64,000 bases of DNA, from assembly GCA_030265395.1 (NCBI GenBank), contig JARFYF010000062.1:20981680-21045679 (forward strand). The letters run 5' to 3'. Of the stretch, positions 8,930 through 53,215 are shown piece after piece. Numbering within the stretch: position 1 is the first letter of the stretch; every line of letters begins with the position of its first letter. Source of the stretch: Rhina ancylostomus. Lineage: Eukaryota. The notes under the pieces are model-generated. The model saw only the letters and a program-made list of their open reading frames with translations. It was not told the origin of the DNA and did not search any database. The translations under genes and the position numbers were made by a program.

Positions 8930-11900
8930 CAACATATTTGCACATTTTCCGGTGTCAGAAAAATATATTTTCTGACCGTTGCTGTTATTGGTGTTCCTGG
9001 TAAGAACATTGGTAAAATAACGTTTGCGTGTGATATGTTTGGAATCGCCCTGTTCCCCGCGGTGCTGTAATGCAGATATTTCAGTGTCCACAGCGTAGAT
9101 ATCCGGAGTTGGATCCCTGTACATTCAGAAATCCCCTTTGCGCTTTGTTCTGTTGCCTTGGTTGAAAATATACGAACAGTTGAAATAGTCGCCCGCAGGG
9201 ATACGGAGGAGAGAGATGGGTTTGCATTTTGTCTCTTATCTTTTTGATGTGGCTGTCACTTAAAATGCCGATAATCGCTGTTGTGCCGCTATCGGGATAT
9301 CGAGAATACCGGCCGAATGGATTTTTTTTTTAAATGCCAACACACCTCGTTCATTTTTTAAAAAAAAGTTACAAAGTATTCTGCGATAATTTTCAGAGCT
9401 TCCAACCGGTTTAACGGGATAGTGGGAATCAGAGTTCGTTGGCATTCAGTAGAGTGCGGGAAACGTTGTTTATGAGCCAAACGCCGAAATTTCCGGAGGT
9501 AAAATGTTCAGAATTTTAGGACTTTAGTGTACCTGACCTTGCTTCCGCATCCCATTACAAATACTCTCAGGAGGGCGAAGACGCAAAACTGCTGGCTCTG
9601 GAGCCGCAGTGAAGGACAGCAGACTTACTCTCTCTGGTCCAACAATCAGTTAGAACAATACATCAGTAAAGTAATTTTGGTATTATTTTAAAGCACCAGA
9701 TTTTATTCAATTTTATACACCTAATTTTAAGTGCAATCTGAGCACTTGATATTGCAAACGAAGAACCTGGAAACATAGCGGTCAGGCAGAAAATATGAGG
9801 AACATTTTTTAAGGAAAATATGAGGGAGAGTTTGAGGTCTGGGACAGGTTATCAGAATTGTGGACGTATGCACAGTTCAAATGTCGCTGACGGATGACGG
9901 TAATCTGGGATTCCAACCACTGTGCTACTGCTCTGTAACCCAGTAGTTAACACGTTGTGCCTGCTGTATTGGTCAGGGTATGATTTTGCAGAACTCGAGC
10001 CGCAAACAAAACCCTGTTGTTATTGAATGAAAATATTCGAGTGAGTTGAAAAACTTTAAAAGATGCATATAGTTCAACGTTCAACCAGGCCGATAGAAAA
10101 AGCGAGTATATTATTAATAGGTGCTATTCATTTATATGTGCAGCGTTTCTTTTCTTTGATGTCTTGGACCAAATATGTGCTACATCGACGCTCCACTGTT
10201 AAGCTCCAGTCATCCATAATCTTCCGGACGTTGCTGGCATTGATCTAGAAGTTTTCATGGGAAATTGGAAGTTATATTATTTAACATTTCAATGTTCTAT
10301 CAACCCCCCACAATCAACTGTCCAATAATTAAGAAAACCCGAAATTTTGTCGCCTAACTCGCCGCTTCCTGACTCCCGCGGTTCGTTCCACTCAGCGGGG
10401 CCGCCAGCTGCACCTTGCACTGAAAATCACTTCATTCCTCTACCCCCACGCACTTGGAAGTTATCTGACTCTACGTTTCCTGCTGCATTGAAAGTTGTGG
10501 AGTAAAATGGAAATGTATATTTCTGCTTGGTAACCTCAGATAAAATAAAATTAAAAAAGATGTCAGAGTTTCAACGTTATTTTATTTTAAAGATGATGGG
10601 TGTTACAAAAGAGCGCGGGAAACAGAACCGCATATGCTTCAAGGAATGGTGGCCTTTCAATGAATGGACGGGGAGAGCGTCAACCCGGGCAAAGATGGGT
10701 GGAGATAATCCGGAAACGGGGCCACGGTATGAGGAAGGACGGAACAAAATCTCTATCGGAGCAGCCCGATTCCAAACTATTGATATTTCCGAATTGTCCA
10801 GTAAAGTATTTTCGGAGACTTTCTGTACAACAAAACTTAAAATATATTGTCATACACTTCCCAGCACCCAACAACTCCTGCGTGTTCCGCAGACATGAGC
10901 AGAGGGAAAAGCTGAACCTGAATACATTGAGTGACATCAAAGGCTGACAGCCTCAACAATGCAACATATTTAAGTTATTCTGATACGCTTGAGTCGTGAC
11001 CGATGAGAACAATGTCAGGATTGTCAGACGAGTATTTTCTCCGATTAATACTCTGACACAATTTTACTTCTCTTTTATGTAGTGTTATGAAGTCTAAATA
11101 TAAAATTTCCATGAACCCGGCAACATTCATTGGTGGGGGAAAATATAACGAAATTAGTTTCATTGTACCGTGGATACCACCAGCAGCGCCAGTGAATTGA
11201 ACGGAGCGCAGGACTAAGTAGACTTCCACCCAGCTGAGAAACATCGGCTTCTCTTAATTATTGCCCATCGGTTTGGGGAGGGAAGGGGTGGTTAATAATC
11301 GATTGATACCGATGAAGCCCCTTCTGCTGTGAGTTAACAATTCACAACCCTCTGCATCCTGGTACAGCTTCATGTCATCCCGGTGATACGCGTTGGAAGT
11401 ATGGAAGAGTCGAGTTGTTCGTCTTCGTTTTGTTACCCTCTTAATCTCTACCCTTATTGACCACAATCCAAAATTTTATTGTGATTGACCCCAGGCGCAA
11501 TTGTCTGTCCTGAGAACCACAAAGAGATTCTTCGGTCATTTAGTCATCCTTTACTTTGCATTCTCAGTGAATTTCTTGGCAATTGTTATCCTGTCCCGAG
11601 GAAAGTGCGGTCTCTCCACCTGCACCACTCGCTACCTGGTGGCCATGGCAACGACAGATCTACTGACGATCATTAATGAGGTGATACTGTGGAGGGTCAG
11701 TTATTATTATTTCCCTGTGACATTCCTGGACATCGCCCCAGTGTGTAGTGTTAGATTTACCCTGGGAAGAGCAGCAGTACAGTGTTCTGTCTGGTTCACC
11801 GTCACTTTCACATTTGACAGATTCGTCGCCATTTGTATTAAGAAGCTGAACGCAAAATATTGCTCTGGGGAAACTGCGGCTGTGGATATGACGACAACCG

Positions 11901-12477
11901 GCGTCCTGCTCTGTGGAAAATGTGTTCCCTTCTATTTTACATGGCGACCCGGGAGGGTGATAGACCATGTACTCTGGGACTCTTTTCAGAAGCCGAGCTA
12001 CTTAAAGGAACCCGGATGGGTGGCATTTGGCTGTCTGGATACCGTTTTTACACCATTGCTCCCGTTCATGTTAATAATGTTGCTCAATGCTCTGACAGTA
12101 AGACATATATTAGTGGCCAGTCGCTGCGGTAAGCGGCTGAGGATCCCGAGCAGGCGGGGAACGTCAGCCACCCGGATATGCAGAACAGGAAGCGGACTGT
12201 GATCTTGCTCTTCACTGTATACTGCAGCTTTATCCTCCTTTGGTTCCTGTATGTGATCGAAATTCTGTATTACACCATGGGGAGAGTGGATCGCAATAGC
12301 TATAACGATTCCGAATACATATTTTCACAATCCGGAGTCCTGTTACAGATGTTAATTTGCTGCAAAAACACGTTCATTTATGGGGTGGCTCAGTCCAAGT
12401 TCAGAGAGCAGTTCCTGAACGCAGCAAGATATCAGTTGACCTTAATTGTTCAATTGAGAAATAAACCTAGCAACTGA
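8930..12477 (+). pseudogene. GPR139/GPR142-like class A GPCR, two exons (exon 1 ~8930-8999; exon 2 11568-12477), frameshifted
   Basis: Exon 1 ...RKIYFLTVAVIGVP G|GTAAG lacks an ATG; acceptor TTCTCAG|TG gives VNFLAIVILSRGKCGLS, YLVAMATTDLL, SVWFTVTFTFDRFVAIC, FTPLLPF; frameshift ~12155; NTFIYGVAQSKFREQF; TATA-like GGCTATAAAG at 8841. Confidence 0.88.
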
Positions 12478-19829: not shown

Positions 19830-21912
19830 GGGATCATGATGGTATAAAGCAGGATCTTGGGAGCATAATCTGGGAACAGGTTTTCTTGGAAGTGCGCAGA
19901 GGAAATGTGGAGGTTGTATAAGGATTACATGCATGGGATTCTGGATAGGTTTGTCCCATTGAAGCAGTGTAAGGATGACAGAGTGAAGAAACGGTGGTTG
20001 ATAAGAGATGTGGAATATCCTGTCAGGACAAAAAACGAAACTTAACTGAGGTTTAGAAAACATGGAGCAGACAGGGCTCTGGAGAATTAAAGCTTGCCAG
20101 GAGGAGCTTAAGAATGGACTTAGCTCGAATGGGGCGTGAGAAGTCCTTTCAGTCGGATCAATGAAAACCCCAAGGTGTGTGAAGAATAGGAGGATAACCA
20201 GAGTGAGGGTTGTTCCAATAACGGACAAAAGAGGAAACATGTGCCTGGCCTCGGAGATGTAGGGGGACATCCTTGATGAATAACTTGCTTCAGTATTCAG
20301 CAGTGGGAGAGACCTTGTCGTTTGTGAGGATGGCGTCCAACTGATATGCTAGGGTATGTCGATGTGAGGAAAGAGGATATGCTGGAACTTCTGAAAAACA
20401 TTAGGAGAGATAAGTCACCGTGACCGGACGGATATATCCATGGTTATTTTAGGAAGCGAGGGAAGAGATTGCTGCGTCTTTGGCGACGAGCTTTGTTTCC
20501 TCACTTGGCACAGTGTCGTTGCACATGATTGGAGGGTTGCAAATATTTTTCCTTTGTTTAAGAAAGGGAGTGGGGTTTTCACAGGGTATTGCAGTTCAGT
20601 GGGTCTTACTTCAGTGCTGAGCAAATTACTGGAGATTCTTAGAGACTGGATTTACGGGCATTTGCAGAAGCATAGGTTGTTTCGGGACAGTCGGCATGGC
20701 TTTCTAAGGGGCAGGTCATGCCTCACAAGCCGGATTGAATTCTTTGAGGCTGTGACAAAGCACATTGATGAAGATAGAGCAGTGGATGAGGTGTACATGG
20801 GTTTCGTAAGGCGCTTGATAAGGTTCGGCTTATTCAGAGAGTCAGCAGGCGTGAGATCCATTTTAACCTGGCAGTGTGGATTCAGAATTCAGTCGCCCAT
20901 TGAAGGCAGAGTGTGGGGGTAGCAGTAGAGTATTCTGCCTCGAGGTCGGTCACCATTTGTGTACTGCAAATCTGTTCTGGGACCCTTGTTCTTCATGATT
21001 TTTATAAATGACCTGGAAGATGCAGAAGGGTTGGGATGGAAGTTTGCTTATGATAGAAAGGTTGATGGTGTGGATAGTGTGGAAGGTTGCCGTAGATTTC
21101 AATATTGTTAAAATGCAGACCTGGGCAAAGAAGAGGCAGATGGAGTTGAACATGGATAAGTGTGAAATTATACACTTCGGGAGGTAGAATTTGAATACCG
21201 AATATAAGGTGAATGGCAGGACTCTTAGCAGTGTGGAGGAACAGATGGATCACGGTGTCCAGGTCCATAGATCCTTCAAGGTTGCCACACCTGTCGATAG
21301 GATTGTTCAGAAGGCATATGGTGTGATGGGATTTATTAGTCGGGGTACTGAGCTGAAGATCTGCGAGGTGATGTTGCATCCCTATAAAACTCTGATCAGA
21401 CCAGAGTTGGAGTTTTGTTTTGTTCTGGTTGTCTATTTACAGGAAGGATGTGGAAGCTTCAGAGAATGCAGAGGAGATTTACCAGGATGTTGTCTGGATT
21501 GGAGAGCATGTCTTATAAGGATAGTTTGATGAGTTTTGGCTTTTCTCTTTGGAGAGAAGGAGGATGAGAGGTGACTTGATAGAGGTGTACACGATGTCAA
21601 GAGGCACAGATCGAGTGGACAGTAAGAGACATTTTTCCCAGGGGTCAAAGGCTAATATGAGGGGATGTAATTTTAAGGTGACTATAGGAAGTTGCAAGGG
21701 AACGCCAGGGGTAAGTTTGATTAGTGGTGGGTGAATGGAATGCACTACCAACAGGAGTTGTGGGGGAGATGCATCACGGACATTTCAGAGACTTAGATAG
21801 ACAGATGAATGCTGGAGAATTAGGGGGCAATGTGAGAGAGAAGGGTAGGATAGATCTAAGACCAGGGTAAAATGTCAGCACAACATTGTGGGCCGAAGTT
21901 GCTGTACTGTGC
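19830..21912 (+). mobile_element. CR1 LINE ORF2 remnant with 3' UTR
   Basis: DWRVANIFPLFKKG, LTSVLSKLLE, RHGFLRGRSCLT, LIRPELEFC, ERRRMRGDLIEVY; tail CACAACATTGTGGGCCGAAG. Confidence 0.92.
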
Positions 21913-27507: not shown

Positions 27508-28028
27508 TGAGGAAGTGAAGGGTTAAGAATCGCAACCATACCTGGTAGAAGAAATATATACGTATATTTCTCTAGCAAGGACTAGCAAGCTGCTGACCCA
27601 CTAGTTAAGTTGGAATGTTAAGTATGTTAACTGCCTTTGTTTTGGGTAATGGGCCATTCTGATCTGTCAGACAGTAGCGATACCGGGTGTAATTAACATC
27701 AAGATGGAAGCTTGGTCTAAACAATGAAGGATGATACCTGCCGTTGAATGTCGTGATTCTAACTCAATTTTTCTAAGACAAAAAGTGTGATAGCTGTCTC
27801 AGGATCTCTATAGCTTGACTGAAGCTCGCGGAGCCGTATGCATGGGATGTGCGTGACAATGCCTACATAAAACCTTTGTCTGCCCTTTGTACGGGGAGAA
27901 CTCAGGAAGCAACTCTGAAGAGAATTCTCCTAGTGGTGCATTGCTAATAAAGGTATTATTTCGAATCAACCTCATGGCACTATGTTACTTACAACGGACA
28001 GAAGGGAAAAACTAATTTCAGTATGACA
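27508..28028 (+). repeat. ERV 5' LTR
   Basis: Starts TGAGGAAGTGAAGGGTTAA, AATAAA at ~27946, ends ATGACA 3 nt before the PBS. Confidence 0.85.
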
Positions 28029-28031
28029 AAT

Positions 28032-28049
28032 TGGCGAGCCAGCCAGGAG
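28032..28049 (+). promoter_or_regulatory. primer binding site, tRNA-Arg(ACG)
   Basis: TGGCGAGCCAGCCAGGAG is the complement of the vertebrate tRNA-Arg(ACG) 3' end ...CTCCTGGCTGGCTCG-CCA. Confidence 0.88.
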
Positions 28050-28602
28050 TTCAACAGGAGGTTTCGGAAGTGGCGTGAGCAATCGACAGGAGCAACGACT
28101 ACCTGAGATGGAAGAGTCCACAAGGTAAAATTCACCTTGATTCCTCTCGGGCAGCCGAACTTCTGACCGATCCCTTCACTTATCGAAAACCCTCTGACAG
28201 ACTCCTCGCAAGACTGTCCGAGTGCCACAGGTAAGAGGGGTTCCCCAGTTAGATTCGGGTTTGGGGTTCGATGCCCAGTTAGATTCGCGTTTGGGGTTCG
28301 AGTCCCCAGTTTGGGGTTTGGGGTTCAAGTCCCCAGGTTTGCGTTTTAAATTTGTGAATTTCAGGGTTTTGAGTTCTAAGTTCTGAGATCGGTTCTCTGG
28401 TACTACCACCCTACCATAGACAGGTTCTTAAGAGGGGAAATCCTCCTTGGGAAGGTCAGGAACCTGAAGTGGGTGAAGGAAAGAGACCGATCGATCTTAT
28501 AAGATAATCGAAGCAATCTATACCGTATGGCTTAAAGTTTAAAAAAATAGGGAGAGAAAAAAATTGGGAAATGAAATATGGCCATTGGGGGGATCTTGGG
28601 AT

Positions 28603-29384
28603 ATGAGTAAGCGCCTGAAGGCAGAAAGGGTGATTTGGGCATGGAATATGGGGGAAAATGGAAAATAATAATGTCCACTTGGAGAAAAACAGCCGAAGAA
28701 CTGACAAATAAATCTAAACGGAATAGTTGGGAACATAATGCACATAGAAGAGGGATTAGTGTGTGTGATGAGAAAGGTGATCCCAAGAGTTGGGAAATTC
28801 TGAGTTCTCAGTGCGGAGACCATGATCAGAAGAATAAGGACAAAACATAGAAATAGTAATAAAAAGGATAATAGCAAGGAGAAAGTGGAGGTACCTTCCA
28901 ACATGTCTGGTGTGCCCCTGTTGTTCCAAAATACCGATACGGATGAGAGTGAGGAGGATTGGAGGGTTCGACCCACAGCCCCTATCTACCTCCAAATTCC
29001 ACCACCGCTCCCATGCAATGTGGCTAGCCTGCAAACCATTAATGCCAGCCAAGCCCCATCACGGGAGCCCCTGAACAAAAGCCACAGACATACAGCAGAA
29101 CCTTTTGCTAGGGGACAGACCTATTATAGATCCTCAGTTGGACAATGATTATGACTCCAATTCTACCACTAATAGTGATGACCTTAGAGGTCCTGACCCA
29201 TCACCTATGCCAAATAAGGCAAAGGGAATTAGGGCTAAAAAGCAGCTCCCCAATAGGAATGTCCCCAATCCCGATCCAGCCCGAGCACTTGCTAATCCCA
29301 CGATCCAAATTTACATCCCTTGGAAGCCTCAGGAGATGTGCCTAATCATGAGTCAGGCGCCCAACAGTAAAATGAACCCAGCGC
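28603..29384 (+). pseudogene. gag: ERV gag N-terminal part (matrix, Pro-rich region, start of capsid), frameshifted and truncated
   Basis: RPTAPIY late-domain-like motif, IYIPWKPQEM capsid-start-like motif, position after leader. Confidence 0.65.
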
Positions 29385-31234
29385 CAAGTAAAATCTCAGG
29401 ACACCCGTCTAAGCACCACTGAGCAGCAGCTTACCCCGAACATATTGCTCTCATCATTGCTACCCCAGCCCCCACTACCCCAAAGGGGATGTGTGCCTTC
29501 TTAGGTTTAGTAAGTTTCTGCAGGTAGTAGCTACCTGACGTGGCCCTCCTTACTAAGCACCTCACACCTCTGGTTTCAAGCCAGTCCTTGGGACCTTTTG
29601 AACTTAAGGAGAAACAAAAGGTGGCCTTTGATAAGCTCAAAGAGGCCCCCACCAGCACCCCAACCCTGGGGCGATCCCTATATGATCGCCCATTCCAGCT
29701 TTTTGCGAATGTTGTGGAGGACTGCCCTACAGCTGTCCTGACACAAGCCCATGGGGATAGAAAAAGACCAGTGGCACATTACTCTCTAAGGACAGTAGCT
29801 AATATCTTTACTGATTCCCACTATGCTTTTGGAGTCGCCCATGATTTTGGACAACTATGGGCACACAGGGGACTTCTGACCTCTACAGGCAGTCCTATAC
29901 AGAATGCGGCTTACATGAAGAACCTCCTCCAAGCCATGCTCCTCCTTAATAAATTGGCCATCATTAAATGCTCAGCTGACCTCTCAGACACCTCCCTAAT
30001 AACACAGGGCAATAACAGGGCAGATGCAGAGGCAAAATTGGCAGCACACTGGGGGACGACTATGATTTCGACTGCGGAAAAATAGGCAGTTGTTTGTAAA
30101 CCGACAATAGCAATGCAGGGCACCCCAGACATGGTCACTCTGCAGCACTTACAGGGGGACGCCCCTGACTCAGAAAAACAAATGTGGAAGGTGTACACAC
30201 ACCACACTGCACCACACGGCCTCTGGGTTACTCCAGTCCGTCAAGTATGTATGCCTGATTCTTTGTTACCAATGCTTATTGACTGCCTTCATTCTGACAC
30301 CCACCTTGGCAAGGAGGGAATGAGTAACATTTTATTACGTACCTGGTGGCATCCCAGATTGGAGGAAGCAGCACAAGGCAAAATACGGTTGTGTTTGATA
30401 TGCCAACAAATCAACACTGGAAAAGGGGTGAGGTGCACCCCAGCCAAAACCCCCTTGCCAGGTGGTCCTTTTGAATGTATACAACTCGACTTTATTGAAT
30501 TACCACGTGTACATTGTTATACCTACTGTCTCGTTATTGTTGATATATTTAATAGATGGATTGAAGCTTTTCCAACCACCAACAATAAGGACTCAACGGT
30601 GGTAACGTTATTGCTGACAGAAGTTATACCAAGGTTTGAGTTACCACGTCAGATAAGTTCAGACAATTGTCCCCACTTCATAGAGAAAATAAATAAAGAC
30701 GTGTGCCAGGCCCTGCATATCGAACAGCAGTTTCACTGCGCCTACCACCTTCAGGCAGCGGGTAGAGTAGAACGAGCTAACAACACGCTGAATAATAAAC
30801 TAACGAAATTAGTATCAGAGACTAGTCTAAATTGGCTGAAGGTTTTCCCGTTAGCATTATGCCACATGGGAATTACCACCCGCTCGGCCACCGGGGTTGT
30901 CGGCTGCCGAAATCGTCTATACACGTCCGGTAAGAACCCCATGGGAGCCCCCCACCCAGGTTAACCTTGATACCTTAATATCATGGGGGATGAACTACAA
31001 AGGTAATTTAGACAACTTCCGTCTTCTCTAAACTTTCTTCATTCACAGGTGAATACCACCAGAAGGACAAAATGTGGAGCTGCTTGACCTGGATATCGGA
31101 GATTCTCTACTAATATGAGATTGAAAGCGCCCTAAACTTGGTGGGAGGGCCCCTTCCAGATACTATTCCAAATTCCTGCAGCCGTGAAAGTACGGGGCCA
31201 GGAACGCTGGTTTTATCTGAGTGACTGTAAATGA
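29385..31234 (+). pseudogene. pol: ERV pol remnant: RT C-terminus/tether, RNase H, integrase
   Basis: PTTPKGMCAFLGLVSFCR; RPFQLF; ANIFTDSHYAFGVAHDFG...GNNRADAEAK; HSDTH..CLIC; IQLDFIEL, SSDN, VERAN; WEGPFQI..AVKV..W. Confidence 0.93.
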
Positions 31235-32646
31235 TGGCCGCCGGAAGGAAGATGACATTTCTTGGATTCGGACTCCTTGCCATTACTGGTACTCTTGCGT
31301 AGGCATCAGAGGATAATCTGTTTTTAAAAGTACACATGCAGCTACATGGGAATCGCACCGTTTTCTACCCCTTGGCAGAATCAGTTGAAGGCCTTTTTGT
31401 AGCCACACCAAACTGGAGCCCCAGGGCCCTTTTAAATTATGAATACTCAACAACAAAGTGTATTGGGCATACGGGAACTTACTGGAAGTTGCTGCCGGGT
31501 AAATGCTTGCAAAGAACAGTAACAGGTCCGAGTAGCACAACCAATCACCAGTCCTTCTCCCGCTGCTTTACCAGTAAAGGATGGGGTTGTGGGATAGCCA
31601 TTGTGCAGCACACGATATCATGTGCTACTACTACTTGAACAGAGAGAAAATGTGGATTTAAGGGGGTATGGTTTAGGTGTGAGTGCGCTGCCACTAGGTG
31701 TGTTACGTTAGTTGCAGTGAAGCGATGGGTTTGTGGGGAAGGGAACGGAACCCATGTGAAATTGTCCAATGTCTCTTTAGAATTGCTAACCATGGAGAAT
31801 TAGCATGGGAGAAATGTTACTGGAAGCACTTGGTATCTCAAATGCCCAGTCCACAGCAATGGGGTAATGTAACCTGTTACCGAGCTAAGGAAGAGTATGT
31901 GTTCCTCTCTAATGGTACTTACACTACCGCCACCCCCACTCCGCCAACCTGATTTGCAATGGAAACGATCGGACAGGTCACGGTCCCCTGCTCCCAGAAG
32001 ACTCATGACCGACGACGACTTGTGATTCGGTCATTAGTGAGGAGTTCTGTGAGGACTGTAGGAATCCTATTACATTGGGATCTCCCTTATTGTCGTTAGG
32101 CTCTGGATTTCTGAGTATTCTTTCTCTCTGGGGGGGATTAGCAGGAACTATAGCCGCCAAATACCGGAACTACCTTATTTGTGGACTGGCCGCGCTGGGT
32201 AACAGAACGATGAAGGATTTGGATGCAGTGAACGGGGAAATGGCGGAGCTTCGACACTATGCCCAGAAGGCCAGGTATGCTGTAGACCAGATCAGCAAGG
32301 AGGAGTATTTGCCATAGTCGGGGACAAATGTGTCACCAATGTGAGAGATGAGTCCGACAACATTTTCCATGCCATTCAGGACATTCAGAAGCAAATAGAT
32401 AGCTTTAAGCAGGGACACACAGGAGTGATGGGTTGGTTGGGTTGGTTGGGGTGGTTACTAGGAGGATCATGGCCATCACACCGTCTGCATGGAGCAGTGG
32501 GTTTGATCGTTATTATAATAATATGCTGTGTGGTGCTGGCCTGTCTAAATACCTGTTACAAGGTCCTCATTAATAAACTCTCGACCCCGTTCTCGGCGCC
32601 ACTCTGTTTATCATGTAATCATAAAAGGGAGAGAATGAAGAAGTGA
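31231..32646 (+). pseudogene. env: ERV env (signal peptide, Cys-rich SU, TM with internal fusion loop), several stops and frameshifts
   Basis: MTFLGFGLLAITGTLA signal; basic RRRLVIR; LICGLAALGNRT..ELR..ARYAVD..QQGGVFAIVGDKC; Trp-rich stretch and TM helix AVGLIVIIIICCVVLAC. Confidence 0.88.
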
Positions 32647-33090
32647 AGGGTTAAAACTGTAGCCATACCTACAGCCGATAGAAAAAAGTACCTCGCAAGC
32701 AAAGAGCACGCAAGCTGTTGACCCAATGGATAAGTTGTTAATTACTTTGTCTGGGACCTTGGTCAGTCCCGTTTTGACATACAATAGGAGTACTGGGTGC
32801 AATAGCCAACGATGAAGAAGTTTGTCCTAAACAATGAGGGGTGATACTTGTCGTTGAATTTCGTTGATTATAACTCAGTTATGCTGGACAGTAGGTGCTA
32901 TATCTGTCTCGGGACCTCCATGCCTTGACCGAAACTCACGGTGCCCCATGCATTAAGTGTGCGTGACAATATCTGTCTGCTCCTTTGTACAGGGTGGAAT
33001 CAGGAAACGACTCTTAACGAGTGCTGAAGAGACGTCTCCTTAGTGGTGCACTGCTAATAGAAGTGTTTTATTGAATCGACCTCGTGGCGA
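32623..33090 (+). repeat. polypurine tract (32623-32635) and ERV 3' LTR (32636-~33090, 3' end missing)
   Basis: AAAAGGGAGAGAA|TGAAGAAGTGAAGGGTTAA; collinear with the 5' LTR up to GAATCGACCTCGTGGC, then replaced by a CR1 tail. Confidence 0.85.
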
Positions 33091-38231: not shown

Positions 38232-40837
38232 TCATTTAATGATTTTCAACATCCAATTCAGCGGGCATTTCACTGCGTTCTTCAACTCTGTTCGGAATTT
38301 ACTCTATGTGACTGAATAAATACACGTGTTTTTTTCGGGAACTGAGAAGCTGCAGCATCGCTCCTGCTTGTGCTGTGATATAAAACGGGGATTCATGAGA
38401 GAATTATCACAAATCTTTGAAACTCGCCAATAGATGTAAAACACCACCTGTGTTACTCACAACAGGACGTAGCTGCCGGTTATACTGAAGAGTAAAACGA
38501 TTCTTCCTTCGGTTCTGCATCTCCGAGTCCTTGTCACCCTCTCCATTACTGCGGCCCCGGAGGCCCCTGCGGACTATACTTGCCACTAAAATCTTTCTTC
38601 CCTTCATAATATTGAGCAGCAAAATCAGAATAAACGTGATACAAGGGGTTAAAATACGGTGAAACATCTCAAATGCCATCCATGATGGGGACGATTTGAA
38701 GCTCCGTTTCAGAACACAATCCCAAGGAACAGCATGAATTATTTTTCTGGGTTCGTATATAAAGTACCAAGGGACAATCTCCAAACATCCCAGCAAACTC
38801 ACTGTTTCTATAACCACAGCTGTCGTTCTCTCTGTGCAATATTTTGTTTTCAGATTCACACAACAAATGGCCAGAAATTGATCAAAGGTGAAAGCGACTG
38901 TAAGCCAAACAGAGACCGCGGTGCTAGCAAAAATCAGCCATATGCCGAGACTGCACACGGGAGTAATTAGGAGGAATGATCGCGTAAAATATATCAGAGC
39001 AGTCCACCTCAGCAGGGGATCCGATAAACCACCAGGAGATCGGCCGCTGCCATTCCCACCAAGTAGCGAGTGATACAATTGGAGAGACAGCATTTTCCGC
39101 GAGACAGGATCGCAATCGCCACCAAGGAAACTGGAATAGAGAGACCAGAAGCAGAACGTTGAGAAAATAATTACCATACCCGAAGCCAATGCTGCGATTT
39201 CACGGGATCCGGTGTTGTTTCCACTTTGTTGTTTCAGCCAGCGGTGGGAACTGATTCCTATATCATGTGAAGGACCGAGAGGGCGCGGTGCCCGTCTCGC
39301 TAGCGATGAAGTTTACAATGTCAGATAAAATGAGTAAGACCTCTATTCGGATTACTTACTGTTGAGCGAAATTTGAAGTGACAGTGGAGAGCTGACTGGG
39401 CAACTGCCTCCTCAGAGGCACTAATGGATGGATCGCTTTTATTGGCGCCGTCTGCGTCTCACATGGGTGAATTGACTAATGCGGGCGTTGATGCCAGGAT
39501 TATCCCATTAGCCAACCATCAACATCCCCGTCGCTCCCTGTCAGTGACAGAACAGAAAAGGTCGGAACAAGAACCGGTAAAGCTGGGAACACTCATGCGC
39601 ATAAACAGTATCTGTGGGAAGAGAAACCAGTTAACATTTTGGGTCAGCAACTCCTCCTCAGTTGAGAGAAAGCTCCTGACTCCAAGCATTAACTGGGTTC
39701 TTGTTCCAGACACACTTGCCGGGCTGAATGCTTCCAGAGGGCGGCACGGTCGCGTTGCGGTTAGCGCGACGCTATTACAGCACCAGCGATCGGGGTTCGA
39801 TTCCCGTCGCTGTCTGTAAGGAGTTTGTACGTTCTCCCGCATTCTAAAGACGTACGGGTAGGTTAATTTGGGGTTTAAAACGGGCGGAGTGGAATTGTTC
39901 GGCCGGAAGGGCCTGTTACCACTCTGTAAATAAAATATAAGAAAGAATTTCCCGAATTTGTTTCATATTTCAACACTTGGCATCCGTACGAGTTCACAAT
40001 AAAACGACGGCTGATTCCAACAGATACAACGCAGTCTGACACAACCTCATAGCCCGGGATGTCGTTTTACACTGAATCTATCACAGGGAGGCTGGGGAGA
40101 GGATTTCAACAGCCGGCAGTAAGCTCGGTGCAGTCGTCGGGCGTCTGCAGTGATGTCAGATGCAGATAAAACAAGCTGCATTTCGCAATATCGATTACTG
40201 TCAAGCACGAAGTCAGTTCTGTTAATTGAATCCGTCAGGATTTCATTGAGTTATCCATTAACTGCCTCATATCCAGTCACAGCTCACACATCTCTTAAAA
40301 ATATTCCACAACTGCTTCGTACTACAACATGGAACTCCTCACAATTGCTGGTATTACTACCCGCCGATGGTTTGATTGCTGCTCCGAACCCAGACACCGG
40401 CTCCCAGTACATTTGCAGAAAATCAACCGGGATTGCGTGAACACAATAATTACAAATGCAGTGCAGCTGCTACAAGACCAAAGCCGCAGAGACCACGAAC
40501 ATTCTGTCATTGATAAGAAAGCTTTGCTGTAGGAACGCTGCCTGATCCACTGGGTACCACGGATGCTGCTCGACCCATTGAATCCCGGCAGCAGTTTGTT
40601 TTTAGCTGTGGATCCTAGAATCTACCCTCTCTTGTGTCTACATTACATTTTAAAATGCTATAATTCTGGAACTCAGTGGGTGGCTGTGTAAACCAGAGAG
40701 AGAAACAATCTAATGTATTAGAATTAAACGCCAATTCCCACCAACGTCAGCTGAGACAGCTACTTACCAGGAATTTCAACGGTTGAAAGAACTGGATAGT
40801 AAAGGTCTCGTATCCAACAGATTACTGGATATCCCAT
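38232..40837 (-). pseudogene. GPR139-like GPCR, two exons (exon 1 40837-40768; exon 2 39130-38232), frameshifted
   Basis: Exon 1 MGYPVICWIRDLYYPVLSTVEIP G|GTAAG; acceptor CTATTCCAG; LVAIAILSRGKCCLS, SVWLTVAFTFDQFLAICC, ILTPCITF, EMQNRRK; frameshifts near 39025 and 38500; TGTATAAATG ~85 bp upstream of the ATG. Confidence 0.88.
39738..39940 (+). mobile_element. tRNA-derived SINE with CR1-like tail (intronic)
   Basis: GGGGCGGCACGGTCGCGTTGCGGTTAGC A-box, GGGTTCGATTCCC B-box, GAAGGGCCTGTTAC tail, A-rich end. Confidence 0.8.
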
Positions 40838-48232: not shown

Positions 48233-49122
48233 CTATGACCTGATTAATTTCGCAATGAGTTTCACTGGGTAATTCACCGCGTTCAGCAGCTGCTCTCGGA
48301 ACTTCCTCTGTGTCAGGACATAAATCCCCGTGTTGGCGCAGGTGCTGAGAAGCTGCAGCATGAGTGCAACTGAAAGGAAATCACTGTCCGCGCTGTACTG
48401 AGCGCCGAGAATACGCTGAAATACAACATACACAACTATTGTGCTCCACAACAGTATGAAGCTACCCGATATGCTGAAGAGTAAAACGATGGATTTCCTT
48501 CTGTTCTCCATCTCTGGGTCCTTGTCATTCTCTCCACTTCTGCGGCCCCGGAGCCCCCTACGGATTCTACCGGATTGTAAAACATACCTGGCGGTCAGTG
48601 AATTTACCAGCAATAACAAAAAGAACGGGAGACAAGGGGTGAGGGTGAAAATAAACAACTCAAATGATGCCCATGAGGGTAAACTTAAGAATGTCCATTT
48701 AAAAATACACCCACGGGGTACGTTGTCGATGATATGTGCTGGGTCAAAAGTAAAATACCAGGGGATGTTTATTAAACAGCTCAGCACAGTTACCGTTCCG
48801 ATAACAACCGTCGCGGTTCTCTCGCTGCAATATTTTGCTCTCAGAGTCTGACAACAGATGGCCAGAAACCGATCAAAAGTGAAACCCACCGTTAACCAGA
48901 CAGAACTCACATTGGCTGCAAACAGCAGGACGAAGTTAAGTGAGCACACGGGGGTGATGGTCAGGAATGATAGTGGGAGATACATTTCAACGATGGTCCT
49001 CACTACGACGTCAGTGATGACGACCAGGAGATCGGCCGCTGCCATTCCCACCAGGTAACGAGTAATGCATTTGGAGAGACCGCACTTCCCTTGGGACAGG
49101 ATCACAATCGTCACCAAATTAA
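48233..49122 (-). CDS. GPR139/GPR142-like class A GPCR, open exon 2 (TM1 C-half to C-terminus); exon 1 not located
   Basis: Acceptor TCTCTCTTCCAG; 890-nt open phase-1 exon NLVTIVILSQGKCGLSKCITRYLVGMAAADLL...SVWLTVGFTFDRFLAICC...IPWYF...LTPCLPF...ENRRKSIVLLFSISGSFILLW...NTGIYVLTQRKFREQL. Confidence 0.9.
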
Positions 49123-49269
49123 CTGGAAGAGAGAGAAAATAAGAAATGATATTTCCCTGAGATCATCAATAATTATGCAATAATTCCCGGCTGACACTGA
49201 GGATGAAGTTTCCGGAATAAAACTAGGAATATAATAATTCATCCTGGGATGCTGAGGAACACCAACCAT

Positions 49270-50279: not shown

Positions 50280-53215
50280 AAAGGGCAGTGAGAAAGATCA
50301 ACGTGCAGTGGGGACGGGCAGGGTGAAGGTGAAGTGGGAACAGGGCACAGTCTAGGAACAGTGGGGAGAATGGAGGGTAAAGGTTCAGTGGGGACAGGGA
50401 GAATGAAGGTGAAGTGGGGACTGGGCAGGGTGAAGTTGCAGTGGGAACCGGACAGGGTGAAGTTGCAGTCGGGACAGGGAGACTGAAGGCGCATTGAGGA
50501 CTGGGCAGGTTTGAAGGTGTAGTGGGGATCGGGCAGGGTGAAAGAGCAGTGGGGGAAGGGCACAGTGAACGTACAGTGGGGAACAGGCACGGTTAAGGTG
50601 CAGTGGGGACGTGGAGAACGAAGGTGAAGTGGGGACCAGGTAGGGTTATGGTGCAATGGTGACTGGGTAGGGCAAAGCGGCAGTTGAAATTCGGCAAGAT
50701 GATGTTGCAGTGGGTTCCGTGCAGAGTAACGTTTCAGTTAGCACCCGGCAGATTGAAGGTGTCTTTAGGACAAGAAAGGGAAAAATGGAGTTGGGACCAC
50801 GCAGGGTGAAGGTGCAGTGGGGAAGGGGCACGGAAAAGTTACAGTTTGTTATCTACAGGTTGACGATTCATTGGGCACCGGGCAGGTTGAACGTGCAGCT
50901 GGGACATGGCAGTTGAAAATGCAGTGTGGACGACGAACGGTGAAGTTGCATTCGGAACCGGGCACGATGAATTTGCATTGGGGAACGGGCGGTGTGAAGT
51001 TGCAATGGGGATCGGGCAGGGCGAAGGTGCAGTGAAGGCCGCGCAAGATGAAGGTGCAGTGGGGACCGGGAAGGGCGAAGGAGCAGTGGAAACTGGACAG
51101 GGTGAAGCTGCTGTGGGGAACGGGCAGTTTCAATGTGCATTGGGGACAGAGAGGGTTGAATGTGCGGTGGGAACTGGGCAGGGTTAAGGTGCAGTGCTTC
51201 CTGGGCAGGGTGAAACTGCTGTGGGCCAGGGCTCTGGGGATATGCAGTTAAGGCTGGGCTCGGTGATGGAGAAGTGGGGAACGTTCTGTATGAAGGGGCA
51301 GTGGACAGCGTGCATCGTGAAGTTGCAGTTGTTATCGAACAGGGCGAATGTGCAGTGATTGCAGGCAGGGAGACGTTGCAGTTGGTTCTGTGCAAGGTGA
51401 CATTTCAGTGGGAACCAGGCTGCATAGGTGCATTGGGGACCGGGCAGGCGGAATCTACAGTGTGGATCGGACAGTGTGAATCTGCAGTGGGGACCGGGCA
51501 GGGTAAAGGTGCAGTGGGCACCGGACAGTTTGAAGATGCAGTTGGTTCGCTGCATTCATGCTGACGCAGAAGGACGAACGTGCAGTTGGGAACAGAAAGG
51601 TGAAGGTGAAGTGGGGACAGGGAAAGGTGATGGTTCAGTGGGGACCGGGCAGCGTGACGGGGCAGAGGGGACTTGGGAGTACGAAGTTGCAGTTGAGATC
51701 TTGAAAGGCGAATGCGCAGTTGGAACTGGGCCGTGCGAAGGTGCAGTGGTTACCGAGCAGAGTGAAGATTAATTGGGGACCGGAAAGGGTGAAGGTATAG
51801 TGGGGACGGGGCAGGGTAAAGGTGCATTGTGGACCGGGCAGCGTGATGGTGACGTGGTGAGCGGGCAAGGTGGTGCAGTGGACACTGGGCAGTGTGAAGG
51901 TGCAGTGGGGACTGGGAAAGGTGAAGATGCGGTGGGGATCGGGCAGGGTGAAAGCGCATTGGGGACCTTACAGCGTGAAGGTGCAGTGGGGTCTAGGATG
52001 TGTAAATGGGCAGTGGGGACCAGGCAGAGTGAATATGCAGGGCGTAGTTGAAGTTTGAACCGGAGTTTCAAACTCCGAACCGAAGTTTGAAGGTGTAGTA
52101 GAGACCGGGCAGGGTGAATGGTCTGTGGGGTCTGGACACTGTGAAGGTGCGGTGGAGACCGGGAATGGTGAATGTGCAGTAGTCACCGGACAGGGTGATA
52201 GTGCAGTGTGTATGTGGCAGGGAACGTTTGGAGTTCGTTTTGTTCAGGGAACCCGGCCGTGTGCAGGTGTAATGTGGACCGGGCAGTGAGAATGTGAAGT
52301 GGAGTCCGGGCTTGTTGAAGCTGCAGTGGGGACTGGTCTGGATGAGGTGCAGTGGGGACCGGGCAGATTCAAGGTGCTGTGGGAACGGGGCAGAGTGAAG
52401 GTTCAGTGGGAACGAGGCAGGGTGATGGTGCAGTGGGCACGAGGCAGGGTGATGGTGCAGTGGGCAGCGGTCCGTTTGAAGGTGTAATTACTGCCGGGCA
52501 GGGTGAAAGAGCAGTGGGGGCTGGGCAAGCTGAAAGAGCACGTGGTCGCTTTGTATTGAAAGGGCATGTGGACCATCAGGGTTAATGTGAAGAGGGGATC
52601 AGAAAGGGTGAATGTGCAGTCGGGACCGGGCAGGGTGCAGTGGTGACCAGGCAGGGTGAAGGTGCAGTGTTGATCGGGCTCGGTGAAGGTGCAGTGTGGA
52701 CCTGGAAGGTTGAGTGTGCAGTGGGTTCTAGGCAGGGTGAAATTGCAGTACCTGCCGGGCAGGGTGAAAATGCAGTGTGGACCAGGCAGAGTGAAGTAGC
52801 AGTGGGGACTGGCTGGCTGAAGGTGCAGTGGGGTCCGCGCAGGATGAAGGTACAGTGGGGTCTGGGAAGGGCGCAGTTCAGTGGGAACCGGGCAGGGTGA
52901 ATGTTCAATGAGGACCCGTCAGGGTGAACCTGCAGTGGGGACGGTTCAGGGTGAAGGAGCTTTGGAGACAGGTCTGGATGAAGGGGGAGTGTAGCTCGGC
53001 ATGACGAGGTTGCAGTAGGGTCCGGCAGTGCCAAGGTGCAGGGGTACTTGGCAGGGTGAATGTTCAGTGGGAACCTGGCATGGCAGCATGAAGGTGCAGT
53101 GGGGACAAGGCAGGGTAACGGTGCAGTGGGGATTGGGGAGGGTGAAGGTGCAGTGAGGCCTGGGCAAGGTGAAGGTACAGTGGAGACTGTGCATTATGAT
53201 CGTGCAGGTGACCTG
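50280..53215. repeat. G-rich degenerate minisatellite, 27-bp unit GGGCAGGGTGAAGGTGCAGTGGGGACC
   Basis: Roughly 100 diverged units; translate as GTGQGEGAV, VKVQWGPGR or PHCTFTLPG depending on frame and strand. Confidence 0.93.

What the first reader, a model, noticed from the sequence alone, without database searches (positions are those of the whole stretch)
32010..32646. ERV envelope with a filovirus GP2-like transmembrane subunit and Cys-clamped internal fusion loop
Seen in the sequence: after a basic RRRLVIR site (1-nt frameshift), the TM reads VISEEFCEDCRNPITLGSPLLSLGSGFLSILSLWGGLAGTIAAKYRNY-LICGLAALGNRTMKDLDAVNGEMAELRHYAQKARYAVD, then after an apparent 7-nt deletion DQQGGVFAIVGDKCVTNVRDESDNIFHAIQDI, a Trp-rich stretch and a TM helix. 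From my recollection, Ebola GP2 reads [66 protein letters not shown]. The 38-residue block aligns with no gaps and shares LICGL, the N-x-T glycan, ELR and RxAxD. The upstream Cys residues lie 41/44 residues before the LICGL Cys, close to the C511-C556 loop spacing, and bracket a hydrophobic internal peptide. Established: filovirus GP2, ASLV TM and reptarenavirus GP2 are homologous to gamma-type retroviral TM, but ordinary gamma/epsilon Env has an N-terminal fusion peptide. Inference: a class I pol backbone in a cartilaginous fish carries a fusion-loop type Env close to the lineage from which filoviral glycoproteins derive. The CX6CC motif appears as FX6CV; TTT is one change from TGT, and the third Cys may be ancestrally absent, which would imply non-covalent SU-TM association. 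Related fish elements may already be published; I cannot check novelty.
Basis: partly seen in the sequence, partly recalled or inferred. Interest (0 to 1): 0.88.

Follow-up and report, generated by a model that had tools for sequence, protein, structure and literature searches.

The report
Shark retrovirus envelope resembling filovirus spike
This is a broken fossil retrovirus, likely from a shark or ray, whose membrane-fusion protein is more similar to that of Ebola and Marburg viruses than to the retroviral ones with solved structures; the link is already published for the fusion core, but here the receptor-binding half is also predicted to fold like the Ebola one.

The parts
27508..28028 (+). 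5' LTR (TG...CA)
   Evidence: aligns to the 3' LTR over 27508-27978, 332 of 430 columns identical, K2P 0.28; right end read from the sequence before the PBS
28032..28049 (+). primer-binding site complementary to tRNA-Arg(ACG)
   Evidence: pattern found at 6 places in G000; 3 of the 6 loci are tRNA-Arg(ACG) genes by ARAGORN
28242..28346 (+). 30-nt tandem repeat in the leader (3.2 copies)
28530..29379 (+). broken gag remnant; about 2.3 kb (gag 3' end, protease, most of RT) is missing at about 29379 relative to the longer copy L039; start approximate
   Evidence: blastn against L039; no Pfam gag hit in 3 frames tested
29366..31225 (+). broken pol remnant: RT connection/RNase H (second gap of about 530 nt at 29784 relative to L039) and integrase; end approximate
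   Evidence: Pfam RNase_H, RT_RNaseH_2, rve, Integrase_H2C2; best PDB hit MLV RT/RNase H 76.7 bits
31231..32009 (+). env signal peptide and SU, broken by stops and frame changes
   Evidence: three-frame translation; pieces align with intact relatives
32010..32030 (+). basic SU/TM cleavage site (R-x-x-R type); frame break next to it
   Evidence: sequence; the same site is in frame with TM in sister copies
32048..32182 (+). predicted internal fusion loop between clamp Cys 1 (32048) and clamp Cys 2 (32180), with a hydrophobic core
   Evidence: Cys conserved in 31 of 32 and 32 of 35 copies; best 13-residue hydropathy 1.7; the disulfide itself is inferred
32183..32287 (+). HR1 with N-x-T sequon (32201-32209) and start of the ISD; frame break at the end
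   Evidence: ungapped to GP2; sequon N in 26 of 35 and T in 35 of 35 copies
32290..32430 (+). CX6C loop (first Cys lost in this copy, no third Cys in any copy) and HR2
32434..32646 (+). Trp-rich membrane-proximal stretch, TM helix (about 32494-32547), short cytoplasmic tail, stop
   Evidence: translation
32623..32635 (+). polypurine tract
   Evidence: sequence directly before the 3' LTR
32636..33088 (+). 3' LTR; the last 50 or so bases of U5 do not align, and no target-site duplication could be called

Best explanation
This is the broken env gene of an old endogenous retrovirus with an MLV-like pol, likely from a cartilaginous fish, whose Env is predicted to have worked like the filovirus and alpharetrovirus spikes, fusing through an internal loop that is likely clamped by a disulfide. 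Shown: the provirus anatomy, the cleavage site, two conserved clamp Cys with the second exactly 45 residues before the CX6C loop as in filovirus GP2, an HR1 glycan sequon, and a CX6C loop with no third Cys. Predicted: a compact SU with the beta-sandwich proximal domain shared by retroviral SU and filovirus GP1. Inferred from ASLV and Ebola: cleavage by a furin-like protease, a trimer, receptor binding by SU, insertion of the clamped loop (probably after an endosomal trigger), and HR1/HR2 collapse to a six-helix bundle. Also inferred: SU and TM are held non-covalently because the linking Cys is missing. The family very likely is the shark/skate ERV clade of Nino Barreat and Katzourakis 2024, and it belongs to a wider group with lizard Env-Mab2, Tapajos virus GP and mammalian filovirus GP. 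This copy cannot make a protein.
Confidence: 0.85

Rival explanations
1. The family is the specific sister group (donor lineage) of Ebola/Marburg/Lloviu GP, as the first reader and the 2024 paper propose, separate from lizard Env-Mab2 and Tapajos GP.
For: Published tree, posterior 0.83. My 59-row tree gives the same topology at 86/81, not starred. 81 ungapped residues to Marburg-type GP2. The SU model ranks GP1 above syncytin-2 SU and gp120.
Against: Support falls to 39/0 under the mixture model, and the alternative appears at 61/4 after thinning. AU tests reject none of the three resolutions (p 0.34-0.51). SU sequence links shark to Mab2 (z 12-14, 0 of 300 shuffles) and not to any of 8 mammalian filovirus GP1 frames (z up to 1.5). 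The third Cys is absent in shark, Mab2 and Tapajos but present in mammalian filoviruses.
Confidence: 0.4
2. The family is sister to lizard Env-Mab2 and Tapajos virus GP over the whole Env; mammalian filovirus GP is a separate, more diverged capture from the same wider group.
For: P0001 aligns end to end with Mab2 (107 bits), over SU end plus TM with Tapajos GP (84 bits), and only over TM with Marburg-type GP (67 bits). Mab2 SU to Tapajos GP1 z 16-18. Shared SU N- and C-terminal motifs, shared lack of the third Cys.
Against: Shared SU similarity and lack of the third Cys may be ancestral, retained states. Direct shark SU to Tapajos GP1 similarity is not significant (113 of 200 shuffles reach it; 7.5 bits vs shuffle max 6.2 only after adding Mab2 to the profile). 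The loop is CX6C in sharks and mammalian filoviruses but CX7C in Mab2/Tapajos. TM trees do not favour it.
Confidence: 0.4
3. It is an ordinary gamma/epsilon-type Env and the GP2 likeness reflects a conserved HR1-ISD core plus the heavy filovirus sampling of the PDB.
For: Ordinary Envs outscore filovirus GP on whole-protein score; AU p 0.42 for shark + ordinary; the PDB holds many GP2 chains and few non-mammalian retroviral TMs.
Against: Ordinary Envs in the set have CX6CC and lack the clamp, while this family has the clamp in filovirus register and no third Cys. All three trees place it away from ordinary Envs or with clamp-bearing groups. Bit scores per chain do not depend on the number of PDB entries.
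Confidence: 0.05
4. It is a filovirus-derived insertion (non-retroviral EVE) or a retrovirus that took its env from a filovirus-like virus.
For: GP1-like SU fold and GP2-like TM; Hotzel 2021 preprint leaves the direction open.
Against: The gene sits at the env position between integrase and PPT/3' LTR in many copies, so it is no lone EVE. Related Envs occur in several shark orders and in lizards, and fish filoviruses are reported to lack the ectodomain, favouring retrovirus-to-filovirus transfer. Direction was not tested here (no root).
Confidence: 0.07

Closest known systems
Cartilaginous-fish ERVs with filovirus-like ectodomains (Nino Barreat and Katzourakis 2024, PMC11521997; Chiloscyllium, Scyliorhinus, Amblyraja, Leucoraja)
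   Same: env position in an LTR element, best viral hits Marburg GP2 / Tapajos GP, LTR-to-LTR 5.8-6.4 kb vs 5.6 kb here
   Different: Nothing shown to differ. The passages read do not describe the fusion-loop clamp ('fusion loop' 0 hits), the missing third Cys or the SU. Their alignment was not readable.
Filovirus GP (Orthoebolavirus, Orthomarburgvirus, Cuevavirus)
   Same: clamp Cys 2 at 45 residues before the loop, HR1 sequon, CX6C spacing, ungapped HR1-ISD-loop-HR2, predicted GP1-core-like SU fold
   Different: no third Cys, clamp 40-44 rather than 45, SU of 220-260 aa without glycan cap or mucin-like extension before the cleavage site, no SU sequence similarity, retroviral context
Env-Mab2 (Mabuya lizard, ATY46612.1) and Tapajos virus GP (YP_010798909.1)
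   Same: compact Cys-rich SU with shared terminal motifs, Cys clamp, no third Cys; end-to-end alignment with Mab2
   Different: CX7C loop and clamp of 38; only 22% identity to Mab2; direct SU similarity to Tapajos GP1 not significant
Avian gamma-type (alpharetroviral, ASLV) Env
   Same: internal fusion peptide flanked by Cys, no separate RBD (PMC9967133 passages); SU features nearest to Avian_gp85/TLV_coat clusters in the ESM Atlas (0.92, a lead only)
   Different: ASLV has CX6CC and a covalent SU-TM bond and an alpharetroviral pol; ASLV TM scores only 11-17 bits
Anamniote gamma-type Envs of CXnC subtype (bioRxiv 2021.11.23.469661)
   Same: two-Cys loop reported as a subtype in fish/amphibian ERVs
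   Different: the text read does not tie CXnC to a Cys-clamped loop or to a named shark family; figures and supplements not seen

Membership tests
Chondrichthyan ERV clade with filovirus-like ectodomain (PMC11521997) | ectodomain's best viral match is a filovirus GP | tested here: met
Chondrichthyan ERV clade with filovirus-like ectodomain (PMC11521997) | lies at the env position of an LTR-flanked retroviral element | tested here: met
Chondrichthyan ERV clade with filovirus-like ectodomain (PMC11521997) | host is a cartilaginous fish | tested here: inconclusive
   host unnamed; every named close relative is a shark or ray
Chondrichthyan ERV clade with filovirus-like ectodomain (PMC11521997) | falls in the same clade as the published loci | not testable with these tools
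   sequences of those loci not found in readable supplements; four zips too large, one PDF unreadable, one zip cut
Canonical gamma-type Env | ISD followed by CX6CC | tested here: not met
   ISD-like stretch and CX6C present; third position C in 0 of 31 copies and in none of the 23 shark-family proteins with a scored loop
Canonical gamma-type Env | N-terminal fusion peptide | tested here: not met
   hydrophobic stretch lies inside the Cys clamp, 14-18 residues after clamp Cys 1
Canonical gamma-type Env | conserved SU CXXC that bonds TM | tested here: not met
   by eye: a CxxC occurs in some relatives (P0001) but not in P0003, P0008, P0155 or the genome's copies seen
Avian gamma-type (alpharetroviral) Env | internal fusion peptide flanked by two Cys | tested here: met
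   by sequence; the disulfide itself not shown
Avian gamma-type (alpharetroviral) Env | covalent SU-TM bond through the third Cys | tested here: not met
   third Cys absent
Filovirus GP (mammalian genera) | GP2 clamp/HR1 sequon/loop register | tested here: met
   45-residue register and ungapped alignment
Filovirus GP (mammalian genera) | GP1 core beta-sandwich fold | tested here: inconclusive
Filovirus GP (mammalian genera) | GP1-GP2 disulfide Cys, glycan cap and mucin-like domain | tested here: not met
   no third Cys; SU core 223-257 aa ending at the cleavage site
Class I (gamma/epsilon-like) ERV backbone | RT/RNase H/IN closest to gammaretroviruses | tested here: met
   3 of 5 pol pieces clearly MLV/XMRV-best, 1 tie with foamy, 1 foamy-best
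Class I (gamma/epsilon-like) ERV backbone | placement in an RT phylogeny | not tested
   no named reference RT set was at hand

The most novel reading that the evidence does not exclude
This shark/ray ERV lineage preserves the whole ancestral spike (SU plus TM) that filoviruses captured: its SU is the retroviral counterpart of the bare GP1 core before glycan cap and mucin domain were added. Lizard Env-Mab2 and Tapajos GP belong to the same non-covalent, fusion-loop Env class, so filoviruses took entire env genes, possibly once, and the GP1-GP2 disulfide is a later feature of mammalian filoviruses.
Probability: 0.3. Interest if true: 0.75.

Novelty: new member of a known kind. Interest (0 to 1): 0.48.

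Why it matters
The origin of the filovirus glycoprotein is an open question. The published link rests on a short ectodomain tree with posterior 0.83. This family has naturally intact relatives in several shark and ray genomes and brings the receptor-binding half into the argument: a GP1-like predicted fold, and SU sequence kinship with a lizard Env and, through it, a snake filovirus GP. That makes 'whole env captured' and 'one capture or two' testable by structure-guided phylogeny. It also points to a fusion-loop Env class that likely lacks the SU-TM disulfide thought to be a hallmark of gamma-type Env. The locus itself is a dead copy with no sign of host function.

Tried and rejected
Homologue search with the 86-aa window piece found nothing among longer proteins. 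P0001 found no relatives in metagenome contigs or viral contigs; Tapajos GP found none; an alpha-like Env gave one irrelevant locus. No ASLV, reptarenavirus or tarsier sequence could therefore be put in the trees. The full-length AlphaFold model was low-confidence; its Foldseek hits were weak though GP2-led. BFVD search of the SU model gave no match; syncytin-1 SU and alpharetroviral SU were not listed in the VIA searches, which is no evidence of difference. ESM Atlas structure search was uninformative. Rfam found nothing in the window. No target-site duplication could be called. One search used a wrong frame for the second TM piece and was redone. Rows dropped from trees: one search used every fourth ordinary Env (23 rows) and one member per redundant cluster; one search dropped 2 long branches (P0037, P0069) and 18 near-duplicates; one search used 25 clamp-bearing rows only. 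Census used 37 of 40 ERV loci (3 were wider re-fetches) out of 150 scored matches. Rejected: that both upstream Cys matter (second is private), that the element is a non-retroviral EVE, that this copy is a co-opted gene (multiple breaks). Searches of earlier scan findings returned nothing. Not run: complex prediction, read mapping. The original Env-Mab2 paper was not held; the Tapajos virus description was not seen.

Full report
Observation. The quoted peptides are present. The basic site is at 32010-32030; TM continues in two further frames (32030-32287, 32290-32643). The window piece alone matches only filovirus GP chains in the PDB but weakly (7 hits, E 0.56-1.5) and PF22307 below cut-off. 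The recalled Ebola text matches a fetched ebolavirus-type locus (the species label is my recall).

Element. The gene is the env of a provirus at 27508-33088. LTRs are 332 of 430 identical, K2P 0.28. At the mammalian rates used in PMC11521997 that would be roughly 45-65 million years; shark rates are slower by my own knowledge, so this is likely a minimum. The primer site fits tRNA-Arg(ACG). About 2.3 kb of gag-pro-RT and 0.5 kb of pol are missing relative to copy L039. Pol pieces favour MLV/XMRV in three of five searches, tie with foamy virus in one and favour foamy integrase in one; MLVIN_C is present in L039. The genome holds 150 scored matches of 208 candidates, some of them split copies, with open frames up to 378 aa against 460-500 aa for intact relatives; DNA identity to the window is mostly 70-85%.

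TM across copies. Over 37 loci, counting only those covering each position: clamp Cys 1 is C in 31 of 32; the second upstream Cys position is W in 28, C in 3, L in 1 of 32; clamp Cys 2 is C in 32 of 35; the sequon N 26 of 35, T 35 of 35; loop Cys C in 27 of 33 and 27 of 31; the third-Cys position is never C (0 of 31). Intact or near-intact relatives from sawshark, horn shark, whale shark, manta and catshark repeat this pattern. Clamp Cys 2 lies 45 residues before the loop in all clamp-bearing groups, including mammalian filoviruses. An unbroken natural frame scores 38.5 bits to Marburg-type GP2 over 81 ungapped residues, against 29.5 (reptarenavirus), 18.5 (syncytin-2) and 16.8 (ASLV); the intact relative P0001 gives 60.5, 31.9, 27.3, 11.1. 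Against this, in the 1.8-billion library many ordinary CX6CC Envs score higher on the whole protein than Marburg-type GP (motifs).

Trees. With 100-144 columns, the shark family, mammalian filoviruses, and Env-Mab2 plus Tapajos GP form one group (96/95 under the mixture model against alpha-like and squamate Envs; 86/78; 80/78). Inside it nothing is resolved: shark + mammalian filovirus 86/81 or 39/0; shark + Mab2/Tapajos 61/4; AU p 0.34-0.51 for all alternatives. Shark + ordinary Env was also not rejected (p 0.42). The 'alpha-like' label for P0103/P0122 is mine, by motif; no ASLV or reptarenavirus row was available.

Mechanism. Shown: motifs and their conservation. Predicted: SU fold. Inferred from ASLV and Ebola (PMC9967133 and bioRxiv 2023.10.07.561363, passages): cleavage, trimer, clamped loop insertion, six-helix bundle. 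With four TM ectodomain Cys forming two pairs and no third loop Cys, SU-TM association is likely non-covalent. Conserved Cys near both SU ends (13 of 17, 28 of 30 copies) may pair with each other; the model has beta-bridge residues at C50 and V267, which fits but does not show it.

Literature. PMC11521997 (abstract, passages, section 11 in full, supplement searches) reports shark and skate ERV ectodomains as sister to Ebola/Marburg/Lloviu/Mengla GP2 (posterior 0.83) and lizard ERVs as sister to Tapajos GP. bioRxiv 2021.11.23.469661 (passages, section 7) notes a CXnC subtype. bioRxiv 2026.05.06.723177 (first quarter and term search) surveys shark Envs without mentioning filoviruses or fusion loops. 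PMC11089739 and PMC11721365 (passages) add nothing on this. Nine library searches found no paper on the shark clamp, the GP1-like shark SU or the SU link to Mab2/Tapajos. Subscription papers, figures, preprint supplements and several large source-data files were not visible and may hold these points.

Verdict. Real, well supported, and in its main claim already known; a new member with additional anatomy worth a follow-up. Interest 0.48.

Noticed in passing
window 11489-12199 (+), 48236-49162 (-), 38410-39312 (-, hit frame partial), and a similar stretch near 7129-7608 of L039: Several single-exon rhodopsin-family GPCR genes or pseudogenes flank the provirus (Pfam 7tm_1); the first two resemble each other. 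I recall such GPR139-like expansions as typical of sharks and rays; not tested.
   Followed up: partly
G000:C62:21056533 (L024), about 43 kb right of this env: A second copy of the same env family lies just beyond the window.
   Followed up: partly
P0017/P0155 cluster (Scyliorhinus torazame, 52 members), P0008, P0072: A subfamily has an extra N-terminal Cys-containing domain of about 150-180 aa, in P0155 followed by a basic site, ahead of the SU core; many near-identical annotated copies suggest recent activity in catshark.
   Followed up: no
P0079, P0100, P0106, P0137, P0043 (Anolis, Ahaetulla, Phrynocephalus and unnamed): A separate squamate Env group also has a Cys clamp (43-53) and no third Cys, so the non-covalent fusion-loop type may be widespread in reptiles.
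   Followed up: partly
P0035 (Tapajos virus GP) vs P0020 (Env-Mab2): The snake filovirus GP1 is sequence-related to the lizard Env SU (z 16-18) and not to mammalian filovirus GP1, pointing to capture of a whole env gene.
   Followed up: yes
window 28242-28346: 30-nt tandem repeat in the proviral leader; a similar repeat region is seen in copy L032.
   Followed up: no
window 20395-20919, 185-898, 50871-53193: A LINE-like RT fragment (by eye, no Pfam hit) and low-complexity tandem arrays giving long spurious frames.
   Followed up: no
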